Below are positions 1 through 16,598 of a stretch of 64,000 nt of DNA, piece after piece (position 1 is the stretch's first letter; the number at the start of each line of letters is the position of its first letter). The stretch lies in assembly GCA_902789675.1 (NCBI GenBank), contig CADAPG010000005.1:868-64867 (forward strand), given 5' to 3'. Position numbers and translations under genes: made by a program. The notes below the pieces were generated by a model, which saw only the letters and a list, made by a program, of their open reading frames with translations, had not been told where the DNA came from and did no database searches. This DNA comes from an uncultured Eubacteriales bacterium (GTDB lineage: Bacteria; Bacillota; Clostridia; Christensenellales; CAG-138).

Positions 1-18
1 CAAAGCGGTATTATACTC

Positions 19-3291: not shown

Positions 3292-3938
3292 TGAGCAATC
3301 CTAAAAAGAATGATCCAAGACAATTCTCGGAAAGGCATCCGAAGTGGAACACAATACTGGGTTTGTTTTTATTTTTGATATTGTTAGCAGCAGCAGGGAC
3401 GATACTGTTCTTCGGATTCAAATTCCTAGGAATTGCGATATCACGCTTTCTTGACTGGCTCAAAGACATTTCATCCAGTTTTGACGCTGTTGTCATAGTT
3501 GCTTTGATAACAGGGACTGTTTCGATCATTACAGTTCTTATTAGTTCCGTTGTCGCAAAAAGCATTGAATATAAAAAACAAAGACGTGCTTATCTTGCTC
3601 AAAAACGCGAAAAATCATATGGTGAATTCGTTGAGATGGTATATAAAATACAAATGTATAGTAAAAATGCTGGAAGCTATACAGAAGAAGAAATGAAAGA
3701 TGATATTCGGTCTTTTTCACAAGAATTAACACTCTGGGGGTCGAAAAGAGTTGCTGATAAATGGGTTCAGTTTAGACTGAATGGTGTAAACCCAAAGGTT
3801 GCTACAGATAATTTGTTTTTATTAGAACAAATAATGAACGAAATGAGAAAAGATCTCGGAGTAAAGCGTGTGAAGAAGGGAAAATTGCTTTCGTTTTTTG
3901 TCAATGACATAGATTCGATTATGGGGAAAAACAAATGA
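3288..3938 (+). CDS. Hypothetical 2-TM membrane protein with a ~125-aa helical cytoplasmic tail, nested in the R-M operon
   Basis: Two hydrophobic helices (ILGLFLFLILLAAAGTILFFGF and VVIVALITGTVSIITVLISSVVA) followed by a charged helical region. ATGA overlap with rhuM upstream and with hsdS downstream. No family recognised. Confidence 0.6.
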   Translation: MMSNPKKNDPRQFSERHPKWNTILGLFLFLILLAAAGTILFFGFKFLGIAISRFLDWLKDISSSFDAVVIVALITGTVSIITVLISSVVAKSIEYKKQRRAYLAQKREKSYGEFVEMVYKIQMYSKNAGSYTEEEMKDDIRSFSQELTLWGSKRVADKWVQFRLNGVNPKVATDNLFLLEQIMNEMRKDLGVKRVKKGKLLSFFVNDIDSIMGKNK

Positions 3939-5224
3939 CCACGAAAATCAAGCAACGAATTGAACAGACTCGTCGCGGGGAAGTGCCTGAGGGATATTGT
4001 ATGAAAAGAGCAATGCTATATCCTATGGGCTGGGGGGAGCCAACACCTTTGAACACCGTACTGCACGAGAATACAGATAGAAATGAAAAACTAGAATATG
4101 GGAAGGAGGACGTTCTATCGGTTTCTGGTGAACTTGGGATAATTAACCAGATTGAGCTCCTTGGCCGATCATATGCAGGAGAGTCTGTTGCTCCATATCA
4201 TGTCGTGGAAACAGGTGATGTGGTATATACAAAGAGCCCGCTGAAGGACAATCCGTATGGAATTATTAAGCAGAACCGCGGTAAACCAGGGATAGTATCA
4301 ACACTCTATGCGGTATACCATTGTGATAACCTGATTACCGGTCAGTATCTTGAAAACTATTTTTCTATTGACTCCTTTTTGAACAACTACCTTAGACCTA
4401 TCGTAAAACGTGGTGCAAAAAATGACATGAAAGTCAACAACGAGGATGTTCTGTTGGGAACAATTCCGCTTCCTCAAATTGATGAACAAAAGATAATCAA
4501 CGAAATAATATCTCATGCGGATCATCTAATCAGGCTTAAGCAAATGCTGATTGATGAACTGAAGAAGTTAAAGCGGGCATGCCTGGCAAAGATGTTTCCT
4601 CAAGAAGGGGAAACGGTACCGGAGATTCGCTTCCCTGGATTCACTGCTCCTTGGGAAAAGCGAATGCTTAGGGATGAATTCGCAAGAAGAAGTGAACGAA
4701 ATGACGGCTCGTTCAAAAAACAACATTGGATTTCTGTTGCGAAAATGTATTATCAATCAGCAGATAAAGTCCAATCAAATAATATAGATACAAGAACATA
4801 TATCATGAGGAAAGGAGATATCGCTTTCGAAGGACACCCAAATGCAGATTTCAAGTATGGGAGATTTGTTGTAAACGATATTGGTGATGGCATTATTTCA
4901 GAGCTATTTCCTATTTATCGACATTTAGGGGAGTTTGATATTGCGTATTGGAAAGTGGCTATTCAAAAAGAAGACATCATGGCACCAATAATAGCAAAAG
5001 CAATAACGACGTCAGGTGCTTCTTCAAACAAGCTTAATGAAGAACACTTTTTACGGCAATTTATATTTGTTCCTTCAATGCCAGAACAAGTTGTGATTGG
5101 AAAGTTCTTTTCTTGCTTGGACTCCATGATTAGCCTTTACCAAAACCAGCTTAAACAGGAGGTACAAAAAAAGAAAGCCATAATGCAGCTATTACTGACG
5201 GGGATCGTGAGGGTAAATCAATGA
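3935..5224 (+). CDS. hsdS: Type I R-M specificity subunit, full length (two TRDs)
   Basis: Two TRD-like halves separated by the central coiled coil IPLPQIDEQKIINEIISHADHLIRLKQMLIDELKKLKRACLAKMFPQEGE. Matching C-terminal conserved region VPSMPEQVVIGKFFSCLDSMISLYQNQL. Confidence 0.9.
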   Translation: MTTKIKQRIEQTRRGEVPEGYCMKRAMLYPMGWGEPTPLNTVLHENTDRNEKLEYGKEDVLSVSGELGIINQIELLGRSYAGESVAPYHVVETGDVVYTKSPLKDNPYGIIKQNRGKPGIVSTLYAVYHCDNLITGQYLENYFSIDSFLNNYLRPIVKRGAKNDMKVNNEDVLLGTIPLPQIDEQKIINEIISHADHLIRLKQMLIDELKKLKRACLAKMFPQEGETVPEIRFPGFTAPWEKRMLRDEFARRSERNDGSFKKQHWISVAKMYYQSADKVQSNNIDTRTYIMRKGDIAFEGHPNADFKYGRFVVNDIGDGIISELFPIYRHLGEFDIAYWKVAIQKEDIMAPIIAKAITTSGASSNKLNEEHFLRQFIFVPSMPEQVVIGKFFSCLDSMISLYQNQLKQEVQKKKAIMQLLLTGIVRVNQ

Positions 5225-6018
5225 ACATGAACAAGAAGGATGTTACGAATTCGGAAGACTTGCAAAGATATTTGCAGGAAAAGTCCCGTGAATCCGATAG
5301 GTTGTATCATTATACATCTTTTGATAGCTTGATTTGTATTATCAAAAACAAGTGTGTCCGTTTGTCAAGAATGGATTTGATGAATGATAAAGCCGAACAG
5401 ACTTTAGGACGTCAGGATCAACATTTGAAAAACTATATCATGAGTTTTACGAGAGACAAAGAGTATGTTTCTATGTGGGCGATGTATGGCAAACCGAGCG
5501 GAATAAAGATTCGGGTTGATTTTTCAAGAGATTGCTTTGAGAGAGCAATTAACAACAACTTCTATGAAGATGCTGCGCTAGTGAAGAAAATACCTTTTGA
5601 ATCCGATAACGCCCCTGGGGCATTTTATAAAAAAGATATTCTTATTTCTGATGTGGTTTACCTTGATAAGATATCACAGCAATTACGGCATAATGAGAAT
5701 AAATTCTCTAGTATTGTAGCTGATCAACTGGTTGTTAATGAAATGACAGGGTTCATCAAATATGATGCATGGGAGTTTGAAAGGGAAACGCGTTTGCGTG
5801 TATTAATGCATCATGAGAAAGGGGCTAATCTTGCGGAAATACCAAAGTATATATATGCTGGAATAGATGGGGATTTGGTTCGCGATCTGCATATTACTTT
5901 TAACCCTTGGATGTCTAAAGAATTGAAAGAAGAGATTAAAAAGAGTTTAGACTCTTTAGCAGGATGTCATTTATCATATGATAACAGTCAAAATGACGGC
6001 GAAATATCAGAGCTGTAA
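5221..6018 (+). CDS. DUF2971-like protein
   Basis: N-terminal LYHYTSFDSLICIIKNKCVRLSRMDLMNDKAEQ matches the remembered DUF2971 signature (YHYTS...L...ND..E). ATGA overlap with hsdS. Confidence 0.55.
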   Translation: MNMNKKDVTNSEDLQRYLQEKSRESDRLYHYTSFDSLICIIKNKCVRLSRMDLMNDKAEQTLGRQDQHLKNYIMSFTRDKEYVSMWAMYGKPSGIKIRVDFSRDCFERAINNNFYEDAALVKKIPFESDNAPGAFYKKDILISDVVYLDKISQQLRHNENKFSSIVADQLVVNEMTGFIKYDAWEFERETRLRVLMHHEKGANLAEIPKYIYAGIDGDLVRDLHITFNPWMSKELKEEIKKSLDSLAGCHLSYDNSQNDGEISEL

Positions 6019-6030
6019 GGAGGATAATCC

Positions 6031-6204
6031 ATGAGCATTGAAGAGCATATCAGCAAAGAAATACTCAAAAACTCTGTCAAGAATTGCCCAAACTATACGG
6101 AGAAAATGAAAAGAGATTTGTGTGAGATAATTGATGTGGGACAGACACCAGATGAGATATGCAGGGCTGTTCTGTTATACTTTGCCGCATATACTTGGTG
6201 CTGA
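6031..6204 (+). CDS. Unlisted 57-aa Cys-containing small ORF: MSIEEHISKEILKNSVKNCPNYTEKMKRDLCEIIDVGQTPDEICRAVLLYFAAYTWC
   Basis: AGGAGG at 6019-6024 lies 6 nt upstream of ATG6031, and the ORF starts 12 nt after the DUF2971 stop. It is below the 60-aa cut-off of the ORF track. Four Cys. No family recognised. Confidence 0.4.
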   Translation: MSIEEHISKEILKNSVKNCPNYTEKMKRDLCEIIDVGQTPDEICRAVLLYFAAYTWC

Positions 6205-6268
6205 ATAAAGGGCGTTGTAGCCCTGCAGGATTCTATTAGTGTGTAACAGATAATACGGAGACAGATTT

Positions 6269-9200
6269 ATGCCAAACCATACCATTTTCAATGAACGTCC
6301 GGAATCGCAGGATCGTGCAATTAGGGTAATCGAACAACTCGGCTACACGGTTGTATCACGCGGCGATGCAGAACAAAAGCGCGGATCGCGGCGAGACGTA
6401 CTCTTTTCGGGAGAGCTGCAGTCCTTTTTAGGCAAGCAGACCTATCCTTTCAACAAAGAACAACGCTTCTTTTCCGGCGGAGGGATCTCGAAAGCCGTGC
6501 GTGCCATCGATCATGTTACGGCTGCCGGTCTGTATGCCTGCAACAAAGAGATCTATGATTTGCTGTGCGAAGGGAAGAGCGTAGAGGAAACGCTGCCGGA
6601 CGGTACACAGCAATCCTTTGATATTCGCTATATCGACTTTGATCATCCGGAAAACAATATCTTTCAAGTCACGGATGAGTTTGAAGTGGAACGACCGAAC
6701 GGGAAGTTTGCCCGTCCGGATATTGTTGTGCTGATTAACGGAATCCCCGTGGTTGTGATCGAATGCAAAAAGTCTTCTGTAGACGTGATGGAAGGTGTAA
6801 CACAGAACATCCGAAACCAGGGGGACGATTATATTCCGCAGCTGTTCCGCTATACGCAGATGGTGGTTGCCGTGAATCCGAATAAGGTGCTTTACGGCAC
6901 TTGCGGAACGCCAGCAAAGCATTTTGTTTCGTGGCATGAGGATGACAAACAGTGGCTCGATGCCTGGTGCAAAAAGTGCTCGCCGGACGGACAGATTCTG
7001 GAACAGGATCGTGCGTTGGTTTCTTTGCTGCATCCGGAACGCTTGTTGGATATTATCCGCAACTTTATCATCTATGACAACAATATCAAGAAGGTCTGCC
7101 GTTATAAACAGTTCTTTGCGGTCAAGAAATGCATGGACCGTGTACTGGAGCGAGACGGCGCCAATACACGAAGCGGCGTTGTTTGGCATACGCAGGGCAG
7201 CGGCAAGACCATCACCATGATTATGCTCACGAAGATGATTATTCGGGAAAGCATGAAAAAGGACAGTCCGATCAAAAAGCCCCGATTCATCATGGTGACC
7301 GACCGTATCAACCTCGATAAGCAGATCCGTGACAACTTTATACATACACAGATGGCACCGCACAGGGCAAAGACAGGAAAGGGCTTGGTTGAACTCCTGA
7401 AAGATGACAGCAACACGGTTATTACAGCACTGGTCAACAAGTTTGAGGCGGCAATCAAGCAAAAGTATTGCAACGAGAGTAAAAACATCTTTCTATTCAT
7501 CGATGAAGGACATCGTACGCAGTATGGCTCTTTGAATATGTATATGACGGAGGTTCTGCCGAATGCAGCAAAGATTGCCTTCACAGGAACGCCGTTGATG
7601 CAGAAAACACCAGAGGGAAGCAAGACACCGATTCAACCCAAACGCAACACGTTTGCCAAGTTCGGAACGCTGATTGACAGCTATACGCTTCAGGATGCGA
7701 TTGATGACGGCGTAACGGTTCCTTTGGTTTATGAAGGCCGTGTTGTTCCGCAATCTGTTACAAGCGAGCAGATCAACGCGCATCTGAAATATATCACGGT
7801 AGGGCTTTCGGAAGATGCGAGACTGGATCTGGAAAAGAAATACAGTCAATTCGTTTATACCGCAGAAACGGAGCAGCGGTTGAATATGATCGCTTTCGAC
7901 CTGCACGAGCATTTTATCAGCTATGTAAAGCCGAAAGGATTCAAAGCGATTCTGACCTGTTCCTCACGTGCTGCAGCCGTGCAAATGTTTTACAAGCTGC
8001 GCAGCATCGGGGGGATTACTCCTGCTGTCGTCATCACACCCAACACGGCAAACGAAGGAGATGACGAGGAAAACACGACAGAATCCAAGAGAATCATCGG
8101 AGATTTCTTCAAAAAGGAAATCGATCCGCTCTACAAGAACAACTATGAGGCATACGAAGATTCTGTTACCGGTGAGTTTGTAGACCCGGAAGGGGAGATT
8201 GATCTTCTCATCGTAAAAGATAAGTTGCTGACCGGCTTTGATGCACCAATTGCTGCGGTATTGTATGTTGATAAGAAGCTGAGAGATCACACTTTGCTGC
8301 AAGCAATCGCACGTGTCAACCGCGTATATGCAGATAAGGATTTCGGATTGATCGTTGATTATATCGGGATCTTCAAGAAGTTGAATTCGGCACTTGATTT
8401 GTATTCGGACGAAAAATCCGGAATGGATGCATTCGATCAAAGCGATATTACGTCTGCAATTACCTCGGTAGAAGAAGAAAAAACTGCGTTGGAGAAAGCA
8501 CATAAGATGCTTTGGGATGTATTCGAAGGCATTCCGAAGAATGAAAAACGAGCGAATGTCTGGCAGGAGCATCTTCGCGAATATGAAAAACGCGTACTAT
8601 TCTATGAAAAACTGGCTGCTTTTGCAAAGCGCGTTGACTTCCTTTATACGAGCTACGACTTGTTCAAAGCAATCGGGCAGGAAAAGGCAGAACAATATCG
8701 AAAAGACTACTTATTCTTCAAAAAACTGAAGGATAGCGTTTCCTTGCGTTTCAACGACAGGGTAGACTTCTCGCAATATGAAGATGGCATTCGCAGATTG
8801 TTGAACACCTATGTTAATGCAGAAGATGTAAGAACGATCATAGAACCGCTCGATATTTCCAATAAGGATAAAATGGAAGAGCAGTTGGCAAGGTTGGGAT
8901 CAAACGAGGCAAAGGCAGAGGCAATTCAAACTCGTCAGGTAGAGGTCTTGGAGAGCAGAAGATTCGAAGATCCGATTCTGTACATGACCTTCATGGAGCG
9001 AATTAACAAAACGATCCGTGACTATCTTGCTGAACGTGATAGCGAAAAATACTTGTCATCTATGGAGCAACTGGCAGACGATTATCGTGCCGGCAGAGGA
9101 AGTACGAATTACCCGGAGATCATCATGGACGATGGGGACGCTAAGTCTTTCTACGGAGCGGTGTGTGCGGGAATTAAAAAGTCAATTGGCGAGGTGACCA

Positions 9201-9427
9201 ACCCGACAAGTGACGCAATGGGCAAGCTGGCAATTAGCATTAAAAACATTATAATTGCCAACACGAAAAGGGATTGGAAAGATAATATTGTCGTTCATCG
9301 CAATATCAAGAAAGCGCTTGATGACCTGCTTTTCGACTATATTGAAGAAAATCATTTAGACTGGTCGTTGGATACAATCGACATTATCATCGATGAAATC
9401 ATGATGGTCGCAAAAAAAGGATTCTGA
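6269..9427 (+). CDS. hsdR: Type I restriction enzyme R subunit (endonuclease/helicase)
   Basis: PD-(D/E)xK nuclease motif PDIVVLINGIPVVVIECKK. Helicase motif I TQGSGKT and motif II DEGHR, plus QAIARVNR. Size is typical (1052 aa). Confidence 0.95.
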   Translation: MPNHTIFNERPESQDRAIRVIEQLGYTVVSRGDAEQKRGSRRDVLFSGELQSFLGKQTYPFNKEQRFFSGGGISKAVRAIDHVTAAGLYACNKEIYDLLCEGKSVEETLPDGTQQSFDIRYIDFDHPENNIFQVTDEFEVERPNGKFARPDIVVLINGIPVVVIECKKSSVDVMEGVTQNIRNQGDDYIPQLFRYTQMVVAVNPNKVLYGTCGTPAKHFVSWHEDDKQWLDAWCKKCSPDGQILEQDRALVSLLHPERLLDIIRNFIIYDNNIKKVCRYKQFFAVKKCMDRVLERDGANTRSGVVWHTQGSGKTITMIMLTKMIIRESMKKDSPIKKPRFIMVTDRINLDKQIRDNFIHTQMAPHRAKTGKGLVELLKDDSNTVITALVNKFEAAIKQKYCNESKNIFLFIDEGHRTQYGSLNMYMTEVLPNAAKIAFTGTPLMQKTPEGSKTPIQPKRNTFAKFGTLIDSYTLQDAIDDGVTVPLVYEGRVVPQSVTSEQINAHLKYITVGLSEDARLDLEKKYSQFVYTAETEQRLNMIAFDLHEHFISYVKPKGFKAILTCSSRAAAVQMFYKLRSIGGITPAVVITPNTANEGDDEENTTESKRIIGDFFKKEIDPLYKNNYEAYEDSVTGEFVDPEGEIDLLIVKDKLLTGFDAPIAAVLYVDKKLRDHTLLQAIARVNRVYADKDFGLIVDYIGIFKKLNSALDLYSDEKSGMDAFDQSDITSAITSVEEEKTALEKAHKMLWDVFEGIPKNEKRANVWQEHLREYEKRVLFYEKLAAFAKRVDFLYTSYDLFKAIGQEKAEQYRKDYLFFKKLKDSVSLRFNDRVDFSQYEDGIRRLLNTYVNAEDVRTIIEPLDISNKDKMEEQLARLGSNEAKAEAIQTRQVEVLESRRFEDPILYMTFMERINKTIRDYLAERDSEKYLSSMEQLADDYRAGRGSTNYPEIIMDDGDAKSFYGAVCAGIKKSIGEVTNPTSDAMGKLAISIKNIIIANTKRDWKDNIVVHRNIKKALDDLLFDYIEENHLDWSLDTIDIIIDEIMMVAKKGF

Positions 9428-9430
9428 GAA

Positions 9431-10153
9431 ATGAGCAGTATTTTACTAACACTATCTAATGGGCAGATTGTTTCTGTGCAGATTGATAGAAAGAAAATGA
9501 AGACATGTCGATTAAAGGTGTTTCCTGATCGACAGATCATTCTTTCTGTTCCGGAATTCGTCAGCGATGAATGGGCAGATGCTTTTTTGGAGGAAAAAAG
9601 ATCTTGGATCGAGAAAAAACTGGAGGTATTTAATTCGACAAGAGGATATGCTTCGACAAATATAATCAAAAATGGTTTCTCTATTCAAATGCTTGGCGAA
9701 GACTTGATCTTTAGTGTATTTCAAGCCGAGAAAGACTATGTAACGCGGGAGGATCGGATTATACAAATTTGCGTTAAGGACCCATCTGATCAAGATCACA
9801 TTATGGATCTTTTCCAAAAGTGGTGGAAAAAACAAGCGTTAAGAATACTACGCGAACGCGTTGACTACTGGTATCCTATTATTCAAAAATATGGGATATC
9901 AAAACCAAAAGTGTACATAAGAAAGATGAAAACGCTTTGGGGAAGCTGCAGCAGAGACAGAGGAATCGTAACCTTCAATTTCTATTTAATAAAAGCGAGG
10001 AGCGCGTGCATTGATTACGTTGTACTTCATGAGCTGACGCATTTTCTATATCCAAACCATAGCAAGCAGTTCTATTCTTTTTTGAGTAATTATATGCCTG
10101 ACTGGAAGGAAAGGAAAACGATATTAGATCAGGATGTTGTTCATGGATTGTGA
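9431..10153 (+). CDS. DUF45/YgjP-like (M48-type) zinc metallopeptidase, a frequent hsdR neighbour
   Basis: HExxH motif in VVLHELTHFLYPNHS near the C-terminus. Starts 3 nt after the hsdR stop. Confidence 0.8.
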   Translation: MSSILLTLSNGQIVSVQIDRKKMKTCRLKVFPDRQIILSVPEFVSDEWADAFLEEKRSWIEKKLEVFNSTRGYASTNIIKNGFSIQMLGEDLIFSVFQAEKDYVTREDRIIQICVKDPSDQDHIMDLFQKWWKKQALRILRERVDYWYPIIQKYGISKPKVYIRKMKTLWGSCSRDRGIVTFNFYLIKARSACIDYVVLHELTHFLYPNHSKQFYSFLSNYMPDWKERKTILDQDVVHGL

Positions 10154-10214
10154 GAAATAGAGTACTAGCTTTACAAAGATACAACAGGATCACGAGAGAA
10201 GCTTGCATAGTTAA

Positions 10215-10265
10215 AAAAGGAGAAGAATCCTTGATCTACGAATACGTCACGGGGAAGAAGGAGGT
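10215..10265 (+). repeat. 51-nt leader element, copy 1 (3 mismatches to copy 2)
   Basis: aaaaggagaagaatccttgatctacgaatacgtcacggggaagaaggaggt, read directly. It ends 6 nt before GTG10272. Confidence 0.95.
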
Positions 10266-10269
10266 ATAA
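10231..10269 (+). promoter_or_regulatory. Candidate leader micro-ORF (TTG start) encoding (M)IYEYVTGKKEV, stop TAA
   Basis: AGGAG-N8-TTG. Codons 10-12 (aag gag gta) form the GGAGG Shine-Dalgarno of the 444-aa ORF. The stop lies 2 nt before GTG10272. Confidence 0.4.
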
Positions 10270-10271
10270 TT

Positions 10272-11606
10272 GTGCGAATGAGGAAAGATAAACTGACGGG
10301 AGCTTTAGATGATGCGAACATTGTTTTTAGTAACAATGATTATCAGTTTACTCTAATGGCAGCTAATAAAGAAGAACCAGAATGTAAACTTGAGTCTTCT
10401 GACGGGTTTATCTATGGTACCTCGTATTACAACAAAAGAGTTGGACTTTTTATTGGGGAATCAAAACTGTGCATTAGCAAATCGCTGTTGTACACTCCTT
10501 TACTCTACGTTCAGTCAGAAACAGCTTGGAATAAAAACATAGATATCAGCAAGTTTCAGCGCATCGTGTTTTCAGGAGGAACACTCAATAATCTTTTTGA
10601 AACTCGATTCTATCAAGATCAGTTACAATTTGATAATGACAAAATAACTATTAACTACCCTACATATAAAAAGCAGTATTCATTTAGAATAAAAGGGACT
10701 AAATGTAATATTACAATTGGCATACTTCCGAACGATTCCTGTGATGATACCTCCTTAAACTATCATAATGAGGCTTACATATGTTTAGAATTTGAGGAAG
10801 AACAACCGTTATCAGATGTGCGAATGCATTATAAATATATTAATCAGGTAGTGTCTGTTATGACACATAGAAAAGAGAATCACTTCGATTATATATTTGT
10901 AGAACAAAGTGGAGACGCGATGATGAGGATGATGAACAGATGTTTGGTTCATCTATGGGAGAATGATAATGCTCAAATGCACAGTAACTGTTGCGCTACA
11001 TTTGATTTTCTGGGAGATAGTCTACCGAGACTATTAAGTCTCGTCTATAACAGTAAAGACAAAGAGGCATCGTACTCATTAGGTTTCATACCGCAAAACA
11101 ATGATGATAGCAGAATCATTACAGATGACACAATTCGATCAATATCAGCGGCCATTGAATGCGAATATCAATTGAGTGATGATCTAACAATTAATTATTC
11201 AGAAGAGTTGGATACAATTTGTGAATTGGCAAGAAATGCAGTAATTAAGTACCGTGAAGAGTATAAGAACTCTACAAAGCTTTCTCCAGATACATATAAT
11301 TCCATTTTCAAAAGTATAAGCTTTTGGAAGATAACTACCGCTGAAAAGGCTTATGCCTTATACGAAAGATTCAAGAACAATATGGAGAGTTATTTTAGCT
11401 TTCGGCAGAGAATAGCGCAGGAAGACATACAACGATTTGTACAGTATAGAAACAGCATATCACATGGTAGTTATCGTAAGATGACGAAGGAAATTAGAGA
11501 TACGGCTTTTGCAATGAAAGTGCTGGTGTATTATAGTTTGCTTCATCGTATTGGTATTCCCGATGAGAAGTTGAATGAATTAAATGTTATGGGGGTTGTG
11601 TTTTGA
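10272..11606 (+). CDS. ApeA-like HEPN-domain protein: beta-rich N-terminal region plus C-terminal HEPN with RNSISH
   Basis: FVQYRNSISHGSYRK (R-x4-H) lies about 45 aa from the C-terminus, where HEPN helix 4 sits. Size and layout resemble the single-gene ApeA abortive-infection proteins. This assignment is from memory only. Confidence 0.5.
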   Translation: MRMRKDKLTGALDDANIVFSNNDYQFTLMAANKEEPECKLESSDGFIYGTSYYNKRVGLFIGESKLCISKSLLYTPLLYVQSETAWNKNIDISKFQRIVFSGGTLNNLFETRFYQDQLQFDNDKITINYPTYKKQYSFRIKGTKCNITIGILPNDSCDDTSLNYHNEAYICLEFEEEQPLSDVRMHYKYINQVVSVMTHRKENHFDYIFVEQSGDAMMRMMNRCLVHLWENDNAQMHSNCCATFDFLGDSLPRLLSLVYNSKDKEASYSLGFIPQNNDDSRIITDDTIRSISAAIECEYQLSDDLTINYSEELDTICELARNAVIKYREEYKNSTKLSPDTYNSIFKSISFWKITTAEKAYALYERFKNNMESYFSFRQRIAQEDIQRFVQYRNSISHGSYRKMTKEIRDTAFAMKVLVYYSLLHRIGIPDEKLNELNVMGVVF

Positions 11607-11618
11607 TAAGAATAAGGG

Positions 11619-12197
11619 GTGATTTGCGTGCTGCTACAAATAATAAATGAAATTAAACAGTGCATATCCAATGATCTATACCTCGCTGCTTTGAGCATGG
11701 CACTGACGATTCCGGATATATGCGGTAAAGCAGAGTATCCCGAGCTGAAAGATAATAGAGACAAAACGAAGAAACGCTATGTGCAGTGGTTTGATACATA
11801 CATCGGGCAACATCAACGCAAATATAGCATTTCTGAAAATGACGGTGTGCCTGATCTCCCATATATCAGCGGCGAACTGGTTTACAAGCTGAGGAACAGC
11901 GTTTTGCATTCCGGCATGGTTGATGTTGACGGACAGAAACTCTCAGAAGAGCAGAACAAGGTTACGAAATTCCGGTTGATGATTTCGGAGAATTTGAGCG
12001 GCGGCTATGCAGCAAGCGATGCAGCGATCACTCGTTCATTGAGCGGTGAAGAAGTGAGCAGGGAATACACGGTTTCGATCCAGTATCTTTGCAACATCCT
12101 TTGTTACGCTGCTGAGAAGTATTACAATGCAAACAAGGATAAGTTCGATTTCTTCCAATACAACATCGTTGACGAACGAAAAGGGGAAAGAGTATGA
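11619..12197 (+). CDS. Small HEPN-like protein (RNSVLH motif); start is GTG11619 or GTG11628
   Basis: Helical N-terminal half LAALSMALTIPDICGK ... ELVYKLRNSVLHSG contains an R-N-x3-H motif. AAGGGG precedes GTG11628. The gene begins 12-21 nt after the upstream stop. Confidence 0.5.
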   Translation: MICVLLQIINEIKQCISNDLYLAALSMALTIPDICGKAEYPELKDNRDKTKKRYVQWFDTYIGQHQRKYSISENDGVPDLPYISGELVYKLRNSVLHSGMVDVDGQKLSEEQNKVTKFRLMISENLSGGYAASDAAITRSLSGEEVSREYTVSIQYLCNILCYAAEKYYNANKDKFDFFQYNIVDERKGERV

Positions 12198-12811
12198 GCA
12201 AGAACGAAAAGCAAAACAAACAACGTAATTTGATAATTGCCGTCTTTTGCGTTATGGCGTTCTTCGTGACGGCGGCTCTGTTATTGGATGTATTCGATGT
12301 TCCGTCAAGACTCGGCTTTAACTGCAAAGATGTGAATTGGAGCATCCAAGGGACAATCATCGGCTCGGTTATTACGATTGGATTGTATCTCATAACATAC
12401 CTGTTAATTCAGCGATGGGATCTAAGAAGGCAGAATAATAAGCAAGAGATAGCTGTCCTGCTATTAAAAGATGCCTATACTGATTGTGAAAAGGGCTTGG
12501 CAATTTTAGAAAAAGGCTATTATCAGATGTTGAAGGATTCTGACGATGATATCGCAAAACAAATTTGCTCCAACGCCGAAAGATTTGCGGATTCATCTTT
12601 TCAAAACGAAACTGTTATCATGGATCTATGCAAAGATGGAGTGATTTCGTCAGAACAGTTGAGAGCCTATTTCAGGGTAAAAACATTTTACTTACAATAC
12701 GTTAGGCTGTCTCTTGCCATGCCGGACAATTCAGGCTTGCATAAGAAAACCAAAGAGATGGCGGAACAAGAAATAAAAGCGGCACTTGAATTGTTAGATA
12801 AGGAAAGATAG
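12194..12811 (+). CDS. Hypothetical 2-TM membrane protein with a helical C-terminal domain
   Basis: TM helices LIIAVFCVMAFFVTAALLLDVF and TIIGSVITIGLYLITYLLI. ATGA overlap with the mini-HEPN gene. No family recognised. Confidence 0.6.
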   Translation: MSKNEKQNKQRNLIIAVFCVMAFFVTAALLLDVFDVPSRLGFNCKDVNWSIQGTIIGSVITIGLYLITYLLIQRWDLRRQNNKQEIAVLLLKDAYTDCEKGLAILEKGYYQMLKDSDDDIAKQICSNAERFADSSFQNETVIMDLCKDGVISSEQLRAYFRVKTFYLQYVRLSLAMPDNSGLHKKTKEMAEQEIKAALELLDKER

Positions 12812-12816
12812 TCGAC

Positions 12817-12867
12817 AAAAGGAGAAAAGTCCTTGATCTACGAATATGTCACGGGGAAGAAGGAGGT
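12817..12867 (+). repeat. 51-nt leader element, copy 2
   Basis: aaaaggagaaaagtccttgatctacgaatatgtcacggggaagaaggaggt, read directly. It ends 9 nt before ATG12877. Confidence 0.95.
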
Positions 12868-12880
12868 TGCCGATTCATGA
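12833..12880 (+). promoter_or_regulatory. Candidate leader micro-ORF copy 2, (M)IYEYVTGKKEVADS; the stop TGA overlaps ATG12877 (ATGA)
   Basis: Same AGGAG-N8-TTG and the same first 12 codons as copy 1. The only codon difference is TAC to TAT (both Tyr). Confidence 0.4.
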
Positions 12881-14073
12881 CAATAAAAGAGCTGGGCTTG
12901 TTGCTTCACGAATACGATGTGTATGATGCACTGCAGTTTATCACTGGCGCACAGAGAGCAATTCTTTCAGCTCTGTTTTGCAAGGATGTAATAGCTGGCT
13001 TACATAACGAAGTTCAAACCGTGACAGAGAAATGGGATGAAGCAATATCTGAAAAAGTAAAAGAGAACCGCGGGAAAGGTGGATGGACAGGGGTTAGCGA
13101 CTGGCCGAATTATAATGTGACAATTGCTGGTGTCGAGATCAACTCGATGTTTGTTCAGGATTTCTTGGTTAGAACTTTCTTTCAGAACGGAAGAAATGCT
13201 TTTGATATATTAGCGCAAGCGGCGAATACCGGATGCTTGGCGACGAAAGCAAAAGCAATTGAACGTGTTAATTTTCGAAGGATGAGCGAGGCTTTCCAAC
13301 AGCAGACATATCAGCAAGCTTCCCCGGAAATGAGCGAGTGGTTCAGCAGTATAGCAAATTCTGACGAATTTAAATATATTGACGCATACTGCAACAGAAC
13401 AAAGCATACGTGTTCGATACCAACGAAGTTTACGATGCCAATACTCAGTAGTGATAATACCGCGACGATACCGGCGTTTCATAAAGAAACCAATCAGTAT
13501 GATGAAAAGGATGTATTAGAACATATTCCTGCTATTTATGAATTCGTTTCAAAAGTGTACCATGATTTCATCGTAATCTTGAAGAAGGAGATAACGAAGC
13601 GTACATATACGGATAACAGGTACTATACTGTAAAGGTTTATCAGCAGAAATATCGTCAAAAGGAGGAGGAAGGTTTCTCGGCTGCGCTGATCGAAGCAAC
13701 AACAGACATAGGTTCTATGCCGGATTCCATACAGATCCTGTTTGCTAAAGCACTCAAGTATAGCGATGGCAACAAAGAGGTAATGGCGCAGAATTGTCCA
13801 TTTGATACGGTTTATATCAAAGCAAAGGATGCAACAGACGAATGCGACTTCATCGGTAAATATGTAGCGAAGGATGTCATTGTCAAGGATGCTCTTCTTC
13901 GATTCAGAACATATAAGAAAGTAATACCTGATAAAGGCGAACAACCGTTGGCTTTGCAAGCGGCGGGGGATGAGAAGCAAAAAGGGAAGTATTATCGCGC
14001 CAACCATTTCTTTGCTATAAAAACAGTCAGCGACGATGAAGCGTTTCTTAAAAAGGTAAATCTGACACTGTAA
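12877..14073 (+). CDS. Hypothetical 398-aa protein, possibly a degenerate HEPN (CNRTKH)
   Basis: Helical N-terminal half with FFQNGRNAFDILAQAAN and IDAYCNRTKHT. The N and H line up with RNSISH and RNSVLH of the two upstream proteins, but the canonical R is a C. The C-terminal ~200 aa are unassigned. Confidence 0.35.
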   Translation: MTIKELGLLLHEYDVYDALQFITGAQRAILSALFCKDVIAGLHNEVQTVTEKWDEAISEKVKENRGKGGWTGVSDWPNYNVTIAGVEINSMFVQDFLVRTFFQNGRNAFDILAQAANTGCLATKAKAIERVNFRRMSEAFQQQTYQQASPEMSEWFSSIANSDEFKYIDAYCNRTKHTCSIPTKFTMPILSSDNTATIPAFHKETNQYDEKDVLEHIPAIYEFVSKVYHDFIVILKKEITKRTYTDNRYYTVKVYQQKYRQKEEEGFSAALIEATTDIGSMPDSIQILFAKALKYSDGNKEVMAQNCPFDTVYIKAKDATDECDFIGKYVAKDVIVKDALLRFRTYKKVIPDKGEQPLALQAAGDEKQKGKYYRANHFFAIKTVSDDEAFLKKVNLTL

Positions 14074-14082
14074 GAGGGAAGA

Positions 14083-14406
14083 GTGATGGAAAAACGAGCT
14101 ACACTGGATGATAGAATCTATACTGCGATCAGGGATAAAGCGGAAGCGTGGGAAGTGGCTGAATTGTCTGCTGAAGAAACACAAGAAAAGCTTTGCGATG
14201 CCACGACGGAAGCTTTTGATAACATTATTCCCGGGGAACGGGTTGATAGGTTCGAGTATTATAAATCACATATGTATGGCTTTGGTCAACTCGTGCAAGA
14301 TGTACACGAAGGTATAATGAACGCTCCTATTGGTTCAAGCGATGAAAAGAAAATAGAACAAAATGCGCCGCAAACAGTTGTTTCCGACGAATTGCCAGAC
14401 CTTTGA
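14083..14406 (+). CDS. Small acidic hypothetical protein (107 aa; ATG14086 is an alternative start)
   Basis: GAGGGAAGAG lies upstream. The protein is rich in D/E. It starts 10 nt after the 398-aa ORF and ends 9 nt before the next ORF. Confidence 0.5.
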   Translation: MMEKRATLDDRIYTAIRDKAEAWEVAELSAEETQEKLCDATTEAFDNIIPGERVDRFEYYKSHMYGFGQLVQDVHEGIMNAPIGSSDEKKIEQNAPQTVVSDELPDL

Positions 14407-14415
14407 GGAAAGAAT

Positions 14416-15996
14416 ATGTCCGAACGTTATACTCGCTTATTTACACTTCCGGAGGGAAACCTATATGCTATCGGTTCTTCTATTATCATTTGTGCCGGAG
14501 CATTATTAAAAGACACTTTATCTGGAAACATTATCGCGCAGTTGAAGTTTCGCAACATCGGAAACAAAACAGTCTCTGCTTTGAAGGTTTCTATACGAAC
14601 GTATGATATTTTTGGAAAAGAATTAGAAGGTATAACAGAGTATCAGTATCTAGATTTAGCGGTTTTGAGGGATCAAGAATTCGGTCAGAAAACCGCTGTG
14701 GTTCTGCCAAACCCGGATACTCGTTCTTTTTGCTGTGATTGCCGTAGCATAGTATTTGCTGATGGCTCTGTTTGGGAAGCAAAAGAAGCGAATTGGTCAC
14801 CTTTGAAAAAGCAAGAATCATTACAATCTCGTTTTGGCGATCTGATAAGTCAATATCAACGTGATATAGGAGATCCGGAAGCAAGATTTGTTGCAATCGA
14901 AGACCGCGATCTTTGGCTTTGCACGTGTGGGGCAATCAACAATAGTGAGGAAAAAATCTGTCATAGTTGCAAGACAAGAATTGAGAAATTAAAAGAGGCA
15001 GAAGATATGACGCTCTTAAATGAGCATTTACAGGAGTATCTACAGAAGGAAGAACAGGCTCGTCTTGAAACTGAACGCAGAGCAGAAATCGCACGTGCGG
15101 AAGAAGCACAAAAAGCTGAAGAAGAACGAATCGCGGCAGAAAAAACGAAAAAGAGATGGAAACAAATTGTTGCGATAGTAACGCCGATCATTCTTGCTTG
15201 CATCGCTTTTGTCATAGTATTAGTCTCTTATATAATTCCTAATAAGAAATACAATTCGGCTTTAGAACTCTACAAATCCAGAAAATACGAAGAGGCAATT
15301 GCGGCATTTGAAGCAATAGCAGGATTTAAGGATAGTAAGGAGAAGATTCAAGTCATCAAGCCTTTGTACCACGATGAATTACTGAATAATGCAAGCGCTG
15401 GATCAGTAGTATTCTTCGGATGCTATGAACAGGATAATGAAGTGGCTACAGCAAATGAAGATATTGAGTGGTTAGTGCTAAAAAGAGATAACAATAGAAT
15501 CCTTTTGATCAGTAGATATGTACTTGATTGTCATCGTTTTGATTATGATATACCCGAGGGAAGCGCATCATGGGGAAATTCATCAATCAGATACTGGCTT
15601 AATAATTCCTTTTTTGAGAATGCCTTTTCAAGTGAAGAACAGGAAAGAATACAAGCGATCCCCATTGAATCAATATCTCCTGCAACTGGCTATGTTTATA
15701 CCACAACAGACAAAGTGTTCTTGTTATCAATTAGCGAAGCAAGCGATTATTTTGTAACAGACAAAGAAAGGACCTGTTTGCCTACAGATTATGCTTCTGA
15801 ACAGATTGTTGTTAATGGAGGTAAACTATACGGGGCAACATGCGAGTGGTGGTTATTGCCTTCTGATAGCGACCCAGCAGGTGTATATGCTGCAGGTGTA
15901 TTAGATGATGGTTGGATTCAACGAAGTCTTCTTAGTGACATAACATACTTTGGTGTACGACCAGTGATATGGGTTGATTTAAATAGTGAAAATTAA
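14416..15996 (+). CDS. Zn-ribbon / coiled-coil / single-TM / DUF6273-like protein
   Basis: CTCGAINNSEEKICHSCK (CxC...CxxC). Charged coiled coil EQARLETERRAEIARAEEAQKAEEERIAAEK. TM helix IVAIVTPIILACIAFVIVLVSYII. The C-terminal WWLLPS...YFGVRPVIWVDL resembles the DUF6273 pattern. Confidence 0.6.
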   Translation: MSERYTRLFTLPEGNLYAIGSSIIICAGALLKDTLSGNIIAQLKFRNIGNKTVSALKVSIRTYDIFGKELEGITEYQYLDLAVLRDQEFGQKTAVVLPNPDTRSFCCDCRSIVFADGSVWEAKEANWSPLKKQESLQSRFGDLISQYQRDIGDPEARFVAIEDRDLWLCTCGAINNSEEKICHSCKTRIEKLKEAEDMTLLNEHLQEYLQKEEQARLETERRAEIARAEEAQKAEEERIAAEKTKKRWKQIVAIVTPIILACIAFVIVLVSYIIPNKKYNSALELYKSRKYEEAIAAFEAIAGFKDSKEKIQVIKPLYHDELLNNASAGSVVFFGCYEQDNEVATANEDIEWLVLKRDNNRILLISRYVLDCHRFDYDIPEGSASWGNSSIRYWLNNSFFENAFSSEEQERIQAIPIESISPATGYVYTTTDKVFLLSISEASDYFVTDKERTCLPTDYASEQIVVNGGKLYGATCEWWLLPSDSDPAGVYAAGVLDDGWIQRSLLSDITYFGVRPVIWVDLNSEN

Positions 15997-16424
15997 ATAA
16001 TAATTCCTACATGATAACTGCAATGTTAGCATATATAAAAAGGAGGTAAACAATATGAAGATTATTAAATCCATTTTGTTGATCTCCAGCATAGCACTAT
16101 TGCTTTTGTAGCCTCTGGTGCTGCTGGGGATCGTGACAGACCCGGCTGTTGTGGCTGTGGCTTCATGGTTTAATTTCGTTGTTGATTTCGTATAGCTAGT
16201 TATTAGCATATGGGAAAAATGCATGAATAAATCGCGAAAGCCGCGCACATAATGCGTGTCCACCGGGATTCGGAACACTCCGAATCCCGGTGTTAATATA
16301 TTCATAATGATAATTGTTTAGTAATGATTATGTTTTCCAAAGCATTAACTTGGTTTGTTTTGTAAAAGTATTATGCATAAAATGTTGAAAACAACGGGCG
16401 ATGAACAGCACCTCCAAAAAGCCG

Positions 16425-16457
16425 GTGTCGTCAAAGTGTCGTCAAAGTGTCGTCAAA
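16425..16457 (+). repeat. Perfect 3 x 11-bp tandem repeat (gtgtcgtcaaa)
   Basis: Read directly. It lies 66 nt from the tRNA 3' end in the ORF-free island border. Confidence 0.9.
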
Positions 16458-16494
16458 ACCCCAAAAATGACAGTTTGCGAAAGAACCAAAAAGG

Positions 16495-16523
16495 AAAAAT
16501 GCCCTAGATTAGGGCACTTTTTT
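16495..16523 (-). terminator. Bidirectional intrinsic terminator just past the tRNA 3' end
   Basis: GCCCTA-gat-TAGGGC stem flanked by an A-run (16495-16500) and a T-run (16518-16523). Confidence 0.6.
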
Positions 16524-16598
16524 GGTTGCGGGGGCAGGACTTGAACCTGCGGCCTCCGGGTTATGAGCCCGACGAGCTACCGACTGCTCCACCCCGCG
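16523..16598 (-). tRNA. Initiator tRNA-fMet (anticodon CAT), CCA encoded
   Basis: The reverse complement is CGCGGGGTGGAGCAGTCGGTAGCTCGTCGGGCTCATAACCCGGAGGCCGCAGGTTCAAGTCCTGCCCCCGCAACCA. It folds as a cloverleaf, with the C1:A72 mismatch and the GGG/CCC anticodon stem of initiator tRNAs. It is nearly identical to E. coli tRNA-fMet as I remember it. Confidence 0.95.

What the first reader, a model, noticed from the sequence alone, without database searches (positions are those of the whole stretch)
10272..12811. Cassette A: ApeA-like HEPN protein, a 192-aa mini-HEPN and a 2-TM protein
The 444-aa protein ends in a HEPN-type R-x4-H motif (YRNSISHG) after a large beta-rich N-terminal region, like ApeA abortive-infection proteins. 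The next gene encodes a second, much smaller protein with almost the same motif (LRNSVLHSG) in a four-helix context. It is ATGA-coupled to a 2-TM protein. ApeA is described as a single-gene system, so a tandem HEPN/HEPN/membrane arrangement behind one leader is not a layout I recognise. HEPN RNases act as dimers, so a heterodimer or a membrane-tethered regulator are both plausible.
Basis: partly seen in the sequence, partly recalled or inferred. Interest (0 to 1): 0.75.

Follow-up and report, generated by a model that had tools for sequence, protein, structure and literature searches.

The report
Two restriction-linked defence modules, side by side
The three genes are real, but they look like two separate anti-phage modules parked next to each other behind a restriction system: a lone ApeA-type RNase, and an unnamed small protein with an RNase-like motif that is paired here with a membrane protein.

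Summary
In detail: three co-directional genes (444, 189-192 and 205 aa), both R-x4-H motifs, and an ATGA overlap between genes 2 and 3.

- **Gene 1** belongs to a family of about 290 cluster representatives. Its members match Pfam ApeA_NTD1 and HEPN_Apea, and R393/N394/H398 are invariant. It is a divergent ApeA-type protein. In 75 other loci it has no conserved partner and often sits beside type I restriction genes.
- **Gene 2** belongs to an uncharacterised family (phrog_18591; no Pfam, NCBIfam or PDB match) with invariant PDxC, RYxxW and R-x4-H motifs. No profile or fold search confirmed a HEPN fold. In 52 distinct loci it usually stands alone in the hsdS-X-hsdR slot where prrC sits.
- **Gene 3** is a 2-TM protein and accompanies gene 2 in only one other element. 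Elsewhere that position holds a TIR protein, unrelated membrane proteins, or nothing.

ApeA-type and gene-2-family genes are adjacent in only 2 of 52 loci.

Verdict: a composite of two restriction-embedded modules, not a three-gene HEPN/HEPN/membrane system. The gene-2 family is the part worth testing.

The parts
10215..10269 (+). Orphan 3' end of a type I hsdS gene (about 17 codons, ...ESLIYEYVTGKKEV*). It carries the GGAGG ribosome-binding site for gene 1.
   Evidence: 51-nt direct repeat with 12817-12867. The in-frame translation equals the conserved C-terminus of intact HsdS proteins in L003, L009, L019, L028, L030, L051, L059 and L060. blastn matches L003 4713-4750 at 94.7%.
10272..11606 (+). 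ApeA-type protein, 444 aa: beta-rich N-terminal domain plus C-terminal HEPN domain, with R393-N394-x3-H398.
   Evidence: The family is otherwise solo.
11628..12197 (+). Small protein of family phrog_18591, 189 aa (192 aa if read from GTG 11619). Invariant motifs PDxC, RYxxW and R92-x4-H97. HEPN-like, not confirmed.
12194..12811 (+). 205-aa membrane protein with two TM helices (about 10-38 and 53-73) and a cytoplasmic C-terminal domain of about 130 aa. ATGA-coupled to the gene before it.
   Evidence: Only six homologs were found. One of them is the partner of the gene-2 relative in L003.
12817..12880 (+). Second orphan hsdS 3' end (...KSLIYEYVTGKKEVADS*). It marks the end of this cassette and the start of the next (DUF8310 gene at 12877).
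   Evidence: 97.8% identical to L003 4708-4752.

Best explanation
The interval is a composite of two independent defence modules of the kind normally embedded in type I restriction-modification operons. They were joined by recombination at the conserved 3' end of hsdS genes.

**Module 1** is a single-gene ApeA-type abortive-infection protein. By analogy with studied ApeA proteins, it is a latent HEPN RNase that dimerises through the R-x4-H domain. On infection it would cut tRNA or other RNA and stop translation. The beta-rich N-terminal domain is the likely sensor.

**Module 2** is a small phrog_18591-family protein, translationally coupled here to a 2-TM protein.
- The small protein is the conserved core. 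In most genomes it stands alone between hsdS and hsdR, the position of prrC.
- I infer that it is a minimal HEPN-like nuclease or sensor that is co-expressed with, and probably held in check by, the restriction complex, and that it fires when a phage disables restriction.
- In the minority of loci where a membrane or TIR protein is fused on behind it, that protein would serve as an added or alternative cell-killing effector.

**Shown:** gene content, family memberships, motif invariance, gene neighbourhoods, and the hsdS remnants.

**Inferred:** RNase activity, activation by infection, any contact with the restriction enzyme, and the role of the membrane protein.
For: **Gene 1 is ApeA-type.**
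- Pfam matches in the protein and in 47 of 60 (HEPN_Apea) and 30 of 60 (ApeA_NTD1) relatives.
- Invariant R393/N394/H398.
- Domain layout in the AF2 model.

**Gene 1 relatives are solo.**
- In 75 metagenome loci there is no recurrent partner, and often no co-directional gene within 150 nt downstream.
- 15 of the 75 loci have type I R-M genes. Layouts include hsdS-ApeA-hsdR (L079, L082) and hsdR-ApeA (L094-L116).

**Gene 2 family contexts.**
- Of 52 distinct loci, 24 have type I R-M genes within 6 kb on the same strand.
- 14 have hsdS immediately upstream, 9 have hsdR immediately downstream, and 8 have both, with overlaps or gaps from -16 to +18 nt.
- Pfam counts agree: 15 of 44 upstream neighbours are Methylase_S and 11-12 of 43 downstream neighbours are HSDR_N/ResIII.

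**The downstream partner varies.** It is a 2-TM protein of 205/212 aa here and in L003, an unrelated 2-TM protein of 227 aa in L012, a TIR protein in L006, and a 1-TM protein in L016.

**Mosaic structure.** Window 11626-12831 matches L003 at 84.6% nucleotide identity. The gene in front differs: ApeA-like here, SLFN_AlbA_2 in L003.

**hsdS remnants** bracket the cassette.

**Phage and plasmid relatives** of gene 2 are solo genes beside lysis cassettes and integrases, and they keep all the invariant residues.

**Literature.** ApeA is a single-protein tRNA anticodon nuclease (10.64898/2026.01.26.701840). HEPN genes embedded in R-M operons, including ApeA and PrrC, are an established theme (PMC3710099).
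Against: - The three genes are packed tightly (21-nt gap, 4-nt overlap), with no predicted terminator between them. They are bracketed as one unit by the two hsdS remnants, so they were probably acquired and are expressed together.
- A second, independent ApeA (canonical, 477 aa) lies 23 nt upstream of a gene-2 relative in L039. A functional link is therefore not excluded.
- The HEPN fold of gene 2 is unconfirmed.
- In this window gene 2 is not between hsdS and hsdR. It lies after hsdR, ygjP and gene 1.
- About half of the family's loci showed no type I R-M genes within 6 kb, although my detection gives only a lower bound.
- No experiment exists on any member of either family.
Confidence: 0.68

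Rival explanations
1. The three genes form one functional system. The ApeA-like protein and the small R-x4-H protein would form a mixed HEPN assembly, or one would regulate the other, with the 2-TM protein as tether or effector.
For: - Tight spacing and ATGA coupling.
- The unit is bracketed by two hsdS remnants.
- A second adjacency of an unrelated-branch ApeA with a gene-2 relative in L039, gap 23 nt.
- In loci where gene 2 has a TM or TIR partner, a closely spaced upstream gene is usually present as well: SLFN_AlbA_2 in L003 and a 336-aa protein in L006.
Against: - Only 2 of 52 gene-2 loci have an ApeA-type neighbour.
- Apart from the copy of this same element, 0 of 74 ApeA-like loci have a gene-2 or gene-3 relative.
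- The gene-2 plus gene-3 module recurs at 84.6% identity behind a different gene.
- Studied ApeA proteins work alone as homo-oligomers (10.64898/2026.01.26.701840).
- The profiles of the two proteins show no similarity.
Confidence: 0.12
2. The small protein is not a nuclease. It is a non-catalytic adaptor, sensor or antitoxin-like partner: an accessory subunit of type I restriction enzymes, or a switch that controls variable downstream effectors (2-TM, TIR). The R-x4-H match would then be a binding motif or coincidental.
For: - No HEPN profile or fold match.
- Swapping of TM and TIR proteins behind a conserved gene is the usual pattern for a sensor with exchangeable effectors.
- Other invariant residues (P32, D33, C35, R53, Y54, W57) lie outside the R-x4-H motif.
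- Translational coupling to hsdS and hsdR.
Against: - Most family members, including prophage copies, have no dedicated partner at all. The protein must therefore act by itself or with host factors.
- R and H are invariant at HEPN spacing, and the motif helix has the same shape as in gene 1.
- The only weak matches in PADLOC are to HEPN-bearing models: CARF_HEPN in 3 of 42 members (best 4e-4) and Cas13a in one.
Confidence: 0.25
3. Genes 2 and 3 are a two-gene HEPN-plus-membrane defence system of the kind reported on phage-inducible chromosomal islands (HEPN-TM). Both genes would be needed, and the solo copies elsewhere would be a different functional state.
For: - ATGA coupling.
- The pair is conserved in a second element, 86% and 77% amino-acid identity.
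- The 2-TM protein has a sizeable cytoplasmic domain that could dock a partner.
- A HEPN-TM system is listed among PICI immune systems (PMC12948488). The original description is recalled from memory, not read here.
Against: - The 205-aa protein has only six homologs.
- Other membrane partners are not detectably related to it.
- No PADLOC model matched either protein beyond a weak CARF_HEPN hit.
- Most family members lack any membrane partner.
Confidence: 0.2

Closest known systems
ApeA / BMEI1217 family of HEPN proteins (Pfam ApeA_NTD1 + HEPN_Apea; Anantharaman et al. 2013, PMC3710099)
   Same: Gene 1 has the same two-part layout: a beta-rich N-terminal domain of about 270-300 aa, then a HEPN domain with a conserved R-x4-H. 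Like this family it is a single gene, and it is associated with restriction-modification operons.
   Different: The window protein scores just below both Pfam cut-offs. Its branch is not picked up from a canonical ApeA: the HMM built from its relatives does not find the L039 ApeA.
Experimentally studied ApeA defence proteins (Gao et al. 2020; Ec1/Ec2ApeA, bioRxiv 10.64898/2026.01.26.701840)
   Same: Single-protein system with a C-terminal HEPN_ApeA-type domain. The expected mode of action is abortive infection through RNA cleavage.
   Different: The studied proteins are longer (HEPN arginine at 502-521). They are described as predominantly helical, with an N-terminal domain and a Mid domain. 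The model here has a beta-rich N-terminal half. Ring oligomers, the dinucleotide pocket and tRNA cleavage cannot be assessed here.
PrrC / RloC anticodon nucleases embedded in type I restriction operons
   Same: Relatives of gene 2 occupy the same operon position, hsdM-hsdS-X-hsdR, and are often translationally coupled. They carry an R-x4-H motif like the PrrC nuclease domain (HEPN according to PMC3710099).
   Different: At about 185 aa there is no ABC-ATPase domain. The HEPN fold is not confirmed. In this window the gene lies outside the hsdS-hsdR slot.
HEPN-TM two-gene system of phage-inducible chromosomal islands (named in PMC12948488)
   Same: A small HEPN-type gene paired with a membrane-protein gene on a mobile island.
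   Different: No sequence comparison was possible. Here the membrane partner is optional across the family and can be replaced by TIR.
phrog_18591 (PHROGs family of unknown function)
   Same: Gene 2 and its relatives match it at E 1e-27 to 7e-62, so gene 2 is a member.
   Different: The family has no annotation. Its link to restriction operons and its invariant motifs are, as far as I found, not described.

Membership tests
ApeA family as defined by Pfam architecture (ApeA_NTD1 + HEPN_Apea) | C-terminal HEPN_Apea domain match | tested here: inconclusive
   The window protein scores 22.1 bits against a cut-off of 24.4, E 2.3e-4. Of 60 full-length relatives, 47 match, best E 2.1e-8.
ApeA family as defined by Pfam architecture (ApeA_NTD1 + HEPN_Apea) | N-terminal ApeA_NTD1 domain, mostly beta strands | tested here: inconclusive
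   16.6 bits against a cut-off of 25.5. Of 60 relatives, 30 match, best E 2.3e-8. The AF2 model has strands from residue 9 to 228.
ApeA family as defined by Pfam architecture (ApeA_NTD1 + HEPN_Apea) | Conserved R-x4-6-H catalytic motif | tested here: met
   R393, N394 and H398 are invariant in 60 sequences.
ApeA family as defined by Pfam architecture (ApeA_NTD1 + HEPN_Apea) | Single-gene system, often in or beside R-M operons | tested here: met
   No recurrent partner in 75 loci. 15 of the 75 have type I R-M genes nearby.
Experimentally characterised ApeA (Ec1/Ec2ApeA type) | Helical N-terminal and Mid domains forming a ligand pocket with the HEPN domain | tested here: not met
   The model shows a beta-rich N-terminal half. 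The paper describes a predominantly helical monomer. There was no significant Foldseek hit in the PDB copy and no PDB sequence hit.
Experimentally characterised ApeA (Ec1/Ec2ApeA type) | tRNA anticodon-loop cleavage, ring-shaped oligomers, activation by deoxydinucleotides | not testable with these tools
   Needs biochemistry and cryo-EM.
HEPN superfamily (for the 189/192-aa protein) | Invariant R-x4-6-H motif | tested here: met
   R92 and H97 are invariant in 42 relatives and in phage and plasmid relatives at about 30% identity.
HEPN superfamily (for the 189/192-aa protein) | Detectable profile similarity to a HEPN family | tested here: not met
   No Pfam HEPN hit in any of 42 members at E<=1. 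hhalign against the ApeA-like family gives 0.6% probability. There are only weak PADLOC hits to CARF_HEPN: 3 of 42 members, best 4e-4.
HEPN superfamily (for the 189/192-aa protein) | Four-helix HEPN fold | tested here: inconclusive
   The confident model (pLDDT 89.7) has a helical core, with the motif at the end of helix 85-98, then a three-strand insertion and a final helix. The placement is the same as in gene 1. Foldseek against the PDB found nothing at E<=0.001, and AbiV only at TM 0.33-0.38.
PrrC/RloC-type restriction-linked anticodon nucleases (for the 189/192-aa protein) | Gene located between hsdS and hsdR of a type I system | tested here: met
   For the family: 14 of 52 loci have hsdS directly upstream and 8 of 52 have both neighbours. 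In the window itself only an hsdS remnant precedes the cassette.
PrrC/RloC-type restriction-linked anticodon nucleases (for the 189/192-aa protein) | N-terminal ABC-type ATPase domain | tested here: not met
   The protein is 170-200 aa throughout the family and has no ATPase match.
HEPN-TM system of PICIs (for genes 2 and 3) | Homology to the published HEPN and TM components | not tested
   The sequences were not at hand. PADLOC gave no match for the 205-aa protein.

The most novel reading that the evidence does not exclude
The phrog_18591 family would be a previously unrecognised minimal guardian of type I restriction enzymes. It is a protein of about 185 aa with its own catalytic centre (R-x4-H together with the PDxC and RYxxW residues), held silent by the restriction complex. 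When phages inhibit restriction it would fire, as PrrC does, but without any NTPase domain. In some lineages it would pass the signal to a membrane or TIR effector. It is found mainly in gut and rumen Clostridia, and relatives occur in temperate phages and on plasmids of other bacteria.
Probability: 0.3. Interest if true: 0.65.

Novelty: new variant of a known kind. Interest (0 to 1): 0.45.

Why it matters
Restriction operons are known to carry 'second-line' RNases, of which PrrC is the textbook case, but few such guards have been defined.

- The small protein family found here has no name in Pfam, NCBIfam or PADLOC, yet it recurs in the PrrC position in 14 of 52 distinct loci, mostly from gut and rumen Clostridia. 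If it is a minimal nuclease or sensor coupled to restriction, it would be a compact new model for how cells detect anti-restriction.
- Its swap-in membrane and TIR partners would show how effectors get bolted onto such guards.
- The hsdS-remnant 'leaders' point to a simple mechanism for shuffling embedded defence genes between restriction operons: recombination at the conserved hsdS 3' end.
- The ApeA-like gene adds a divergent branch to a family whose mechanism is only now being worked out.

Tried and rejected
- **Word-index homolog search with the 444-aa protein** found only itself. The exhaustive phmmer search was needed.
- **Structure searches:** Foldseek against the PDB for both models gave no significant hit. 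PDB sequence searches with both family profiles gave nothing meaningful.
- **Zincin idea for gene 2:** the weak Foldseek hits include zincin-type proteases (DPP III, SprT), which suggested a metalloprotease. I rejected this because there is no HExxH motif, only one invariant histidine, and TM scores are about 0.15-0.2.
- **One family of 2-TM proteins?** I tested whether the 205-aa protein, the 216-aa protein at 3288-3938 and the 227-aa partner in L012 are related. Pairwise BLASTP found no significant similarity. They share architecture only.
- **Repeat as leader peptide or regulatory leader:** I considered that the 51-nt repeat encodes a short leader peptide (MIYEYVTGKKEV) or is a regulatory leader. 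I rejected this in favour of an hsdS C-terminal remnant, because intact HsdS proteins end with the same sequence.
It was repeated with 13 closer sequences.
- **PDB sequence searches for other neighbours** (L023 360 aa, L006 336 aa, L039 ApeA) gave nothing useful.
Full report
**Setting**

Bases 1 to about 16,500 of the window are roughly 36-50% G+C, mostly about 40%. The rest of the window is about 60%. This low-GC stretch ends at a tRNA-Met gene (16523-16598, minus strand) next to surE. All genes in it run on the + strand:

| Coordinates | Gene or product |
|---|---|
| 19-711 | hsdS fragment |
| 692-2272 | hsdM |
| 2269-3291 | RhuM / PDC-S05 |
| 3288-3938 | 216-aa 2-TM protein |
| 3935-5224 | hsdS |
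| 5221-6018 | 265-aa PDC-S31-like protein |
| 6269-9427 | hsdR |
| 9431-10153 | YgjP-like metallopeptidase |
| 10272-12811 | the three genes of the finding |
| 12877-15996 | DUF8310 protein (398 aa), 107-aa protein, DUF6273 protein (526 aa) |

The finding therefore lies at the tail of a type I restriction-modification island that is already full of embedded defence genes.

**Checking the observation**

- The three ORFs, both motifs and the ATGA overlap are as described.
- Gene 2 most likely starts at GTG 11628 (189 aa). Gene callers chose that start, and relatives begin at the aligned position.
- Both R-x4-H motifs are invariant across their families, so they are not chance matches.
- Hydropathy gives two membrane helices in the 205-aa protein, with K/R-rich segments before the first and after the second. 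This implies an N-in/C-in topology and a cytoplasmic C-terminal domain of about 130 aa.

**Gene 1 (444 aa)**

- The fast word-index search found only the protein itself.
- The exhaustive phmmer search found 291 cluster representatives at E<=0.001, most of them 430-460 aa and aligned end to end.
- The window protein scores just under the Pfam cut-offs for HEPN_Apea, HEPN_MAE_28990 and ApeA_NTD1.
- Of 60 aligned relatives, 47 match HEPN_Apea and 30 match ApeA_NTD1, with best E-values near 2e-8.
- G10, P274, R393, N394 and H398 are invariant.
- The AF2 model is confident (pLDDT 91.4, pTM 0.90). It has a beta-rich half (strands 9-228) and a helical half (244-440). R393-H398 sits at the end of helix 383-397.

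This is the architecture that Anantharaman et al. defined for ApeA: a mostly beta N-terminal domain of about 300 aa plus HEPN, sometimes embedded in R-M operons (PMC3710099).

It differs from the ApeA proteins studied experimentally. Those are longer and are described as predominantly helical, with an N-terminal domain, a Mid domain and a split HEPN domain. They form rings of dimers, cut tRNA anticodon loops, and are switched on by 5'-phosphorylated deoxydinucleotides (10.64898/2026.01.26.701840). Foldseek against the PDB copy gave no significant hit.

I file gene 1 as a divergent member of the ApeA_NTD1 + HEPN_Apea kind, not as an orthologue of Ec1/Ec2ApeA.

**Is gene 1 tied to genes 2 and 3?**

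A metagenome scan with close relatives of gene 1 returned 75 loci.
- An HMM of the gene-2 family, and BLAST with the 205-aa protein, hit only L078. That locus is a 100%-identical fragment of this same element.
- In the other loci the ApeA-like gene has no recurrent neighbour. Often no co-directional gene lies within 150 nt downstream.
- 15 of the 75 loci have type I R-M genes beside it. Layouts include hsdM-hsdS-ApeA-hsdR (L079, L082) and hsdM-hsdS-hsdR-ApeA (L094-L116), the latter as in the window.

Gene 1 behaves as a solo, restriction-associated gene.

**Gene 2 (189/192 aa)**

- 54 clusters of relatives were found, all 160-230 aa and none with a Pfam domain.
- The alignment has invariant A24, L25, P32, D33, C35, R53, Y54, W57, R92, H97 and G99. 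These form the motifs ALTIPDICGKAEY, RYxxW and LR(N/C)SxLHxG.
- These residues persist in about 30%-identical proteins of Erysipelothrix phage SE-1, a Lentilactobacillus phage-plasmid and a Bacillus thuringiensis plasmid.
- The family is phrog_18591, function unknown.
- There is no Pfam match for any of 42 members at E<=1, no NCBIfam match and no PDB sequence match at E<=10.
- The AF2 model is confident (pLDDT 89.7). It has helices 4-17, 21-39, 49-68 and 85-98, a three-stranded sheet (117-153) and a final helix 154-171.
- Foldseek against the PDB found nothing at E<=0.001. The HEPN protein AbiV appears only at TM 0.33-0.38.
- Foldseek against viral models found only family members.
- hhalign against the ApeA-like family gave 0.6% probability.

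In favour of a HEPN relationship:
- R and H are invariant at HEPN spacing.
- The motif closes a helix of about 14 residues and is followed by glycine, exactly as in gene 1.
- An insertion between the motif helix and the last helix is also seen in ApeA.
- The only weak PADLOC matches are to HEPN-bearing models.
- The genomic niche is typical of HEPN proteins.

I put the chance that this is a true HEPN nuclease at about one half.

**Gene 2 neighbourhoods**

I read 21 loci from seven relatives and 55 loci from representative genomes. Almost all of the genome loci are from Clostridia of gut and rumen. Collapsed at 90% identity, this makes 52 distinct loci.
- 24 have type I R-M genes within 6 kb on the same strand.
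- 14 have hsdS directly upstream, 9 have hsdR directly downstream, and 8 have both.
- These are lower bounds, since detection used BLAST with six query sets.
- Independent Pfam counts agree: 15 of 44 upstream neighbours are Methylase_S, and 11-12 of 43 downstream neighbours carry HSDR_N/ResIII.
- Junctions are tight, from -16 to +18 nt.

This is the position of prrC in the EcoprrI operon (established knowledge; PrrC is described as HEPN and R-M-linked in PMC3710099).

The remaining loci are other defence contexts: OLD-type ATPase/TOPRIM, PLD-type restriction enzyme, Fic, T5orf172 and GmrSD. In phages and phage-plasmids the gene is solo, beside the lysis cassette or the integrase. That is a usual place for prophage defence genes.

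**Gene 3 and other partners**

- The 205-aa protein has only six homologs.
- One of them (P0058, 77% identical) follows the 86%-identical gene-2 relative in L003, again with a 4-nt overlap. There the pair lies inside an operon: hsdM, hsdS, SLFN_AlbA_2, gene 2, 2-TM, hsdR.
- Nucleotide identity between the two elements is 84.6% over window 11626-12831. It stops at the start of gene 2.
- Other gene-2 relatives are followed by a TIR_2 protein (L006, overlapping), an unrelated 227-aa 2-TM protein (L012), a 1-TM protein (L016), or directly by hsdR.
- The 2-TM proteins share architecture but no detectable sequence similarity.

Gene 2 is therefore the conserved core, and the membrane protein is an optional, exchangeable add-on.

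**The 'leader'**

- The 51-nt repeat before gene 1 (10215-10265) recurs before the DUF8310 gene (12817-12867).
- Translated in frame it reads ...SLIYEYVTGKKEV*. This is the conserved C-terminus of the HsdS proteins that precede gene-2 relatives in L003, L009, L019, L028, L030, L051, L059 and L060.
- The DNA matches the hsdS 3' end of L003 at 95-98%, and that of L039 at 88%.
- The GGAGG ribosome-binding site of the following gene lies inside the KKEV codons.

The 'leaders' are therefore orphan hsdS 3' ends. Each cassette seems to have been lifted from an hsdS-X-hsdR slot, with recombination at the conserved hsdS end as the likely route. This also explains why the first gene behind the remnant can differ (ApeA-like here, SLFN_AlbA_2 in L003) while the gene 2 + gene 3 block is shared.

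**ApeA next to gene 2: chance or link?**

Besides the window, one locus (L039, a rumen Acutalibacteraceae MAG) has a canonical ApeA directly upstream of a gene-2 relative, behind an hsdS gene. That ApeA is 477 aa and matches ApeA_NTD1 at 5e-33 and HEPN_Apea at 2e-17. It belongs to a different branch, since the HMM of gene-1 relatives does not detect it.

Two adjacencies in 52 loci is what I would expect if both families independently favour the same slot. I cannot put a number on that expectation, so a weak functional link remains possible.

**Mechanism, with status**

- *Shown:* family memberships, invariant residues, neighbourhoods and mosaic structure.
- *Inferred for gene 1:* a latent HEPN RNase acting alone in abortive infection, by analogy with ApeA.
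- *Inferred for gene 2:* a minimal nuclease or sensor co-expressed with type I restriction subunits. It may be held inactive by them and released when phage anti-restriction proteins strike, as with PrrC.
- *Inferred for the 2-TM protein:* its cytoplasmic domain could dock gene 2. It could then act as a membrane-damaging effector, with TIR as the alternative in L006.
- The main rival is that gene 2 is a non-catalytic adaptor.

**Novelty and score**

HEPN genes embedded in R-M operons have been a known theme since 2013. A HEPN-TM pair is already listed among PICI immune systems (PMC12948488). Gene 1 is a new member of a known kind.

The gene-2 family is unnamed and uncharacterised. It recurs in the prrC slot in Clostridia and has exchangeable TM and TIR partners. 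I rate the whole as a new variant of a known kind, interest 0.45.

Noticed in passing
window 10215-10269 and 12817-12880: 51-nt direct repeat, 94% identical. It is the orphan 3' end of an hsdS gene (...SLIYEYVTGKKEV*) placed before each of two cassettes. The same sequence ends intact hsdS genes in many other loci, which suggests that embedded defence genes are shuffled by recombination at the hsdS 3' end.
   Followed up: yes
window 12877-15996: A second cassette behind the second hsdS remnant: a 398-aa DUF8310 protein, a 107-aa protein, and a 526-aa protein with a coiled-coil/TM middle and a C-terminal DUF6273 domain. None has a PADLOC or NCBIfam assignment. It may be another uncharacterised defence module.
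   Followed up: partly
window 3288-3938: A 216-aa protein with two N-terminal TM helices and a helical C-terminal domain, 4-nt-overlapped between RhuM (PDC-S05) and hsdS. It has the same architecture as the 205-aa protein of the finding but no detectable sequence similarity to it. The island thus carries two small membrane proteins coupled to different partners.
   Followed up: partly
window 5221-6018: A 265-aa protein directly after hsdS, in the hsdS-hsdR slot, with weak matches to the PADLOC candidate PDC-S31 (E 4e-7). This is another embedded gene of unknown function.
   Followed up: no
window 19-711 and 3935-5224: Two hsdS-type reading frames in one operon: a 230-aa half-size fragment overlapping hsdM, and a full 429-aa gene. 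I did not check for inverted repeats or shufflon-type phase variation.
   Followed up: no
L006 4978-7375: A 65%-identical relative of gene 2 is flanked by a 336-aa protein with no Pfam match (N-terminus VILGAGATIAA, reminiscent of SIR2-type proteins) and an overlapping TIR_2 protein. The trio sits beside a type II R-M/Vsr cluster. It could be a Thoeris-like combination, but this is untested.
   Followed up: partly
L039 4535-6585: A canonical ApeA (477 aa, ApeA_NTD1 5e-33, HEPN_Apea 2e-17) lies 23 nt upstream of a gene-2 relative and directly after hsdS in a rumen Acutalibacteraceae MAG. This is the only other ApeA/gene-2 adjacency found. The contig ends 330 nt later.
   Followed up: partly
L152 3998-4510 (Erysipelothrix phage SE-1) and L153 2147-2755 (Lentilactobacillus buchneri phage-plasmid): Distant relatives of gene 2 (about 32% identity, all invariant residues kept) are solo genes next to the holin/endolysin cassette or the integrase of temperate phages. 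This is consistent with a stand-alone prophage defence gene.
   Followed up: partly
window 1-16500 versus 16500-64000: The whole restriction/defence array is roughly 36-50% G+C (mostly about 40%) in a host that is about 60% G+C, and it abuts tRNA-Met (16523-16598). It is therefore a horizontally acquired island. The same island occurs on a 105.8-kb contig (sample ERZ28613037) and a 17.4-kb contig (sample ERZ1029115).
   Followed up: partly
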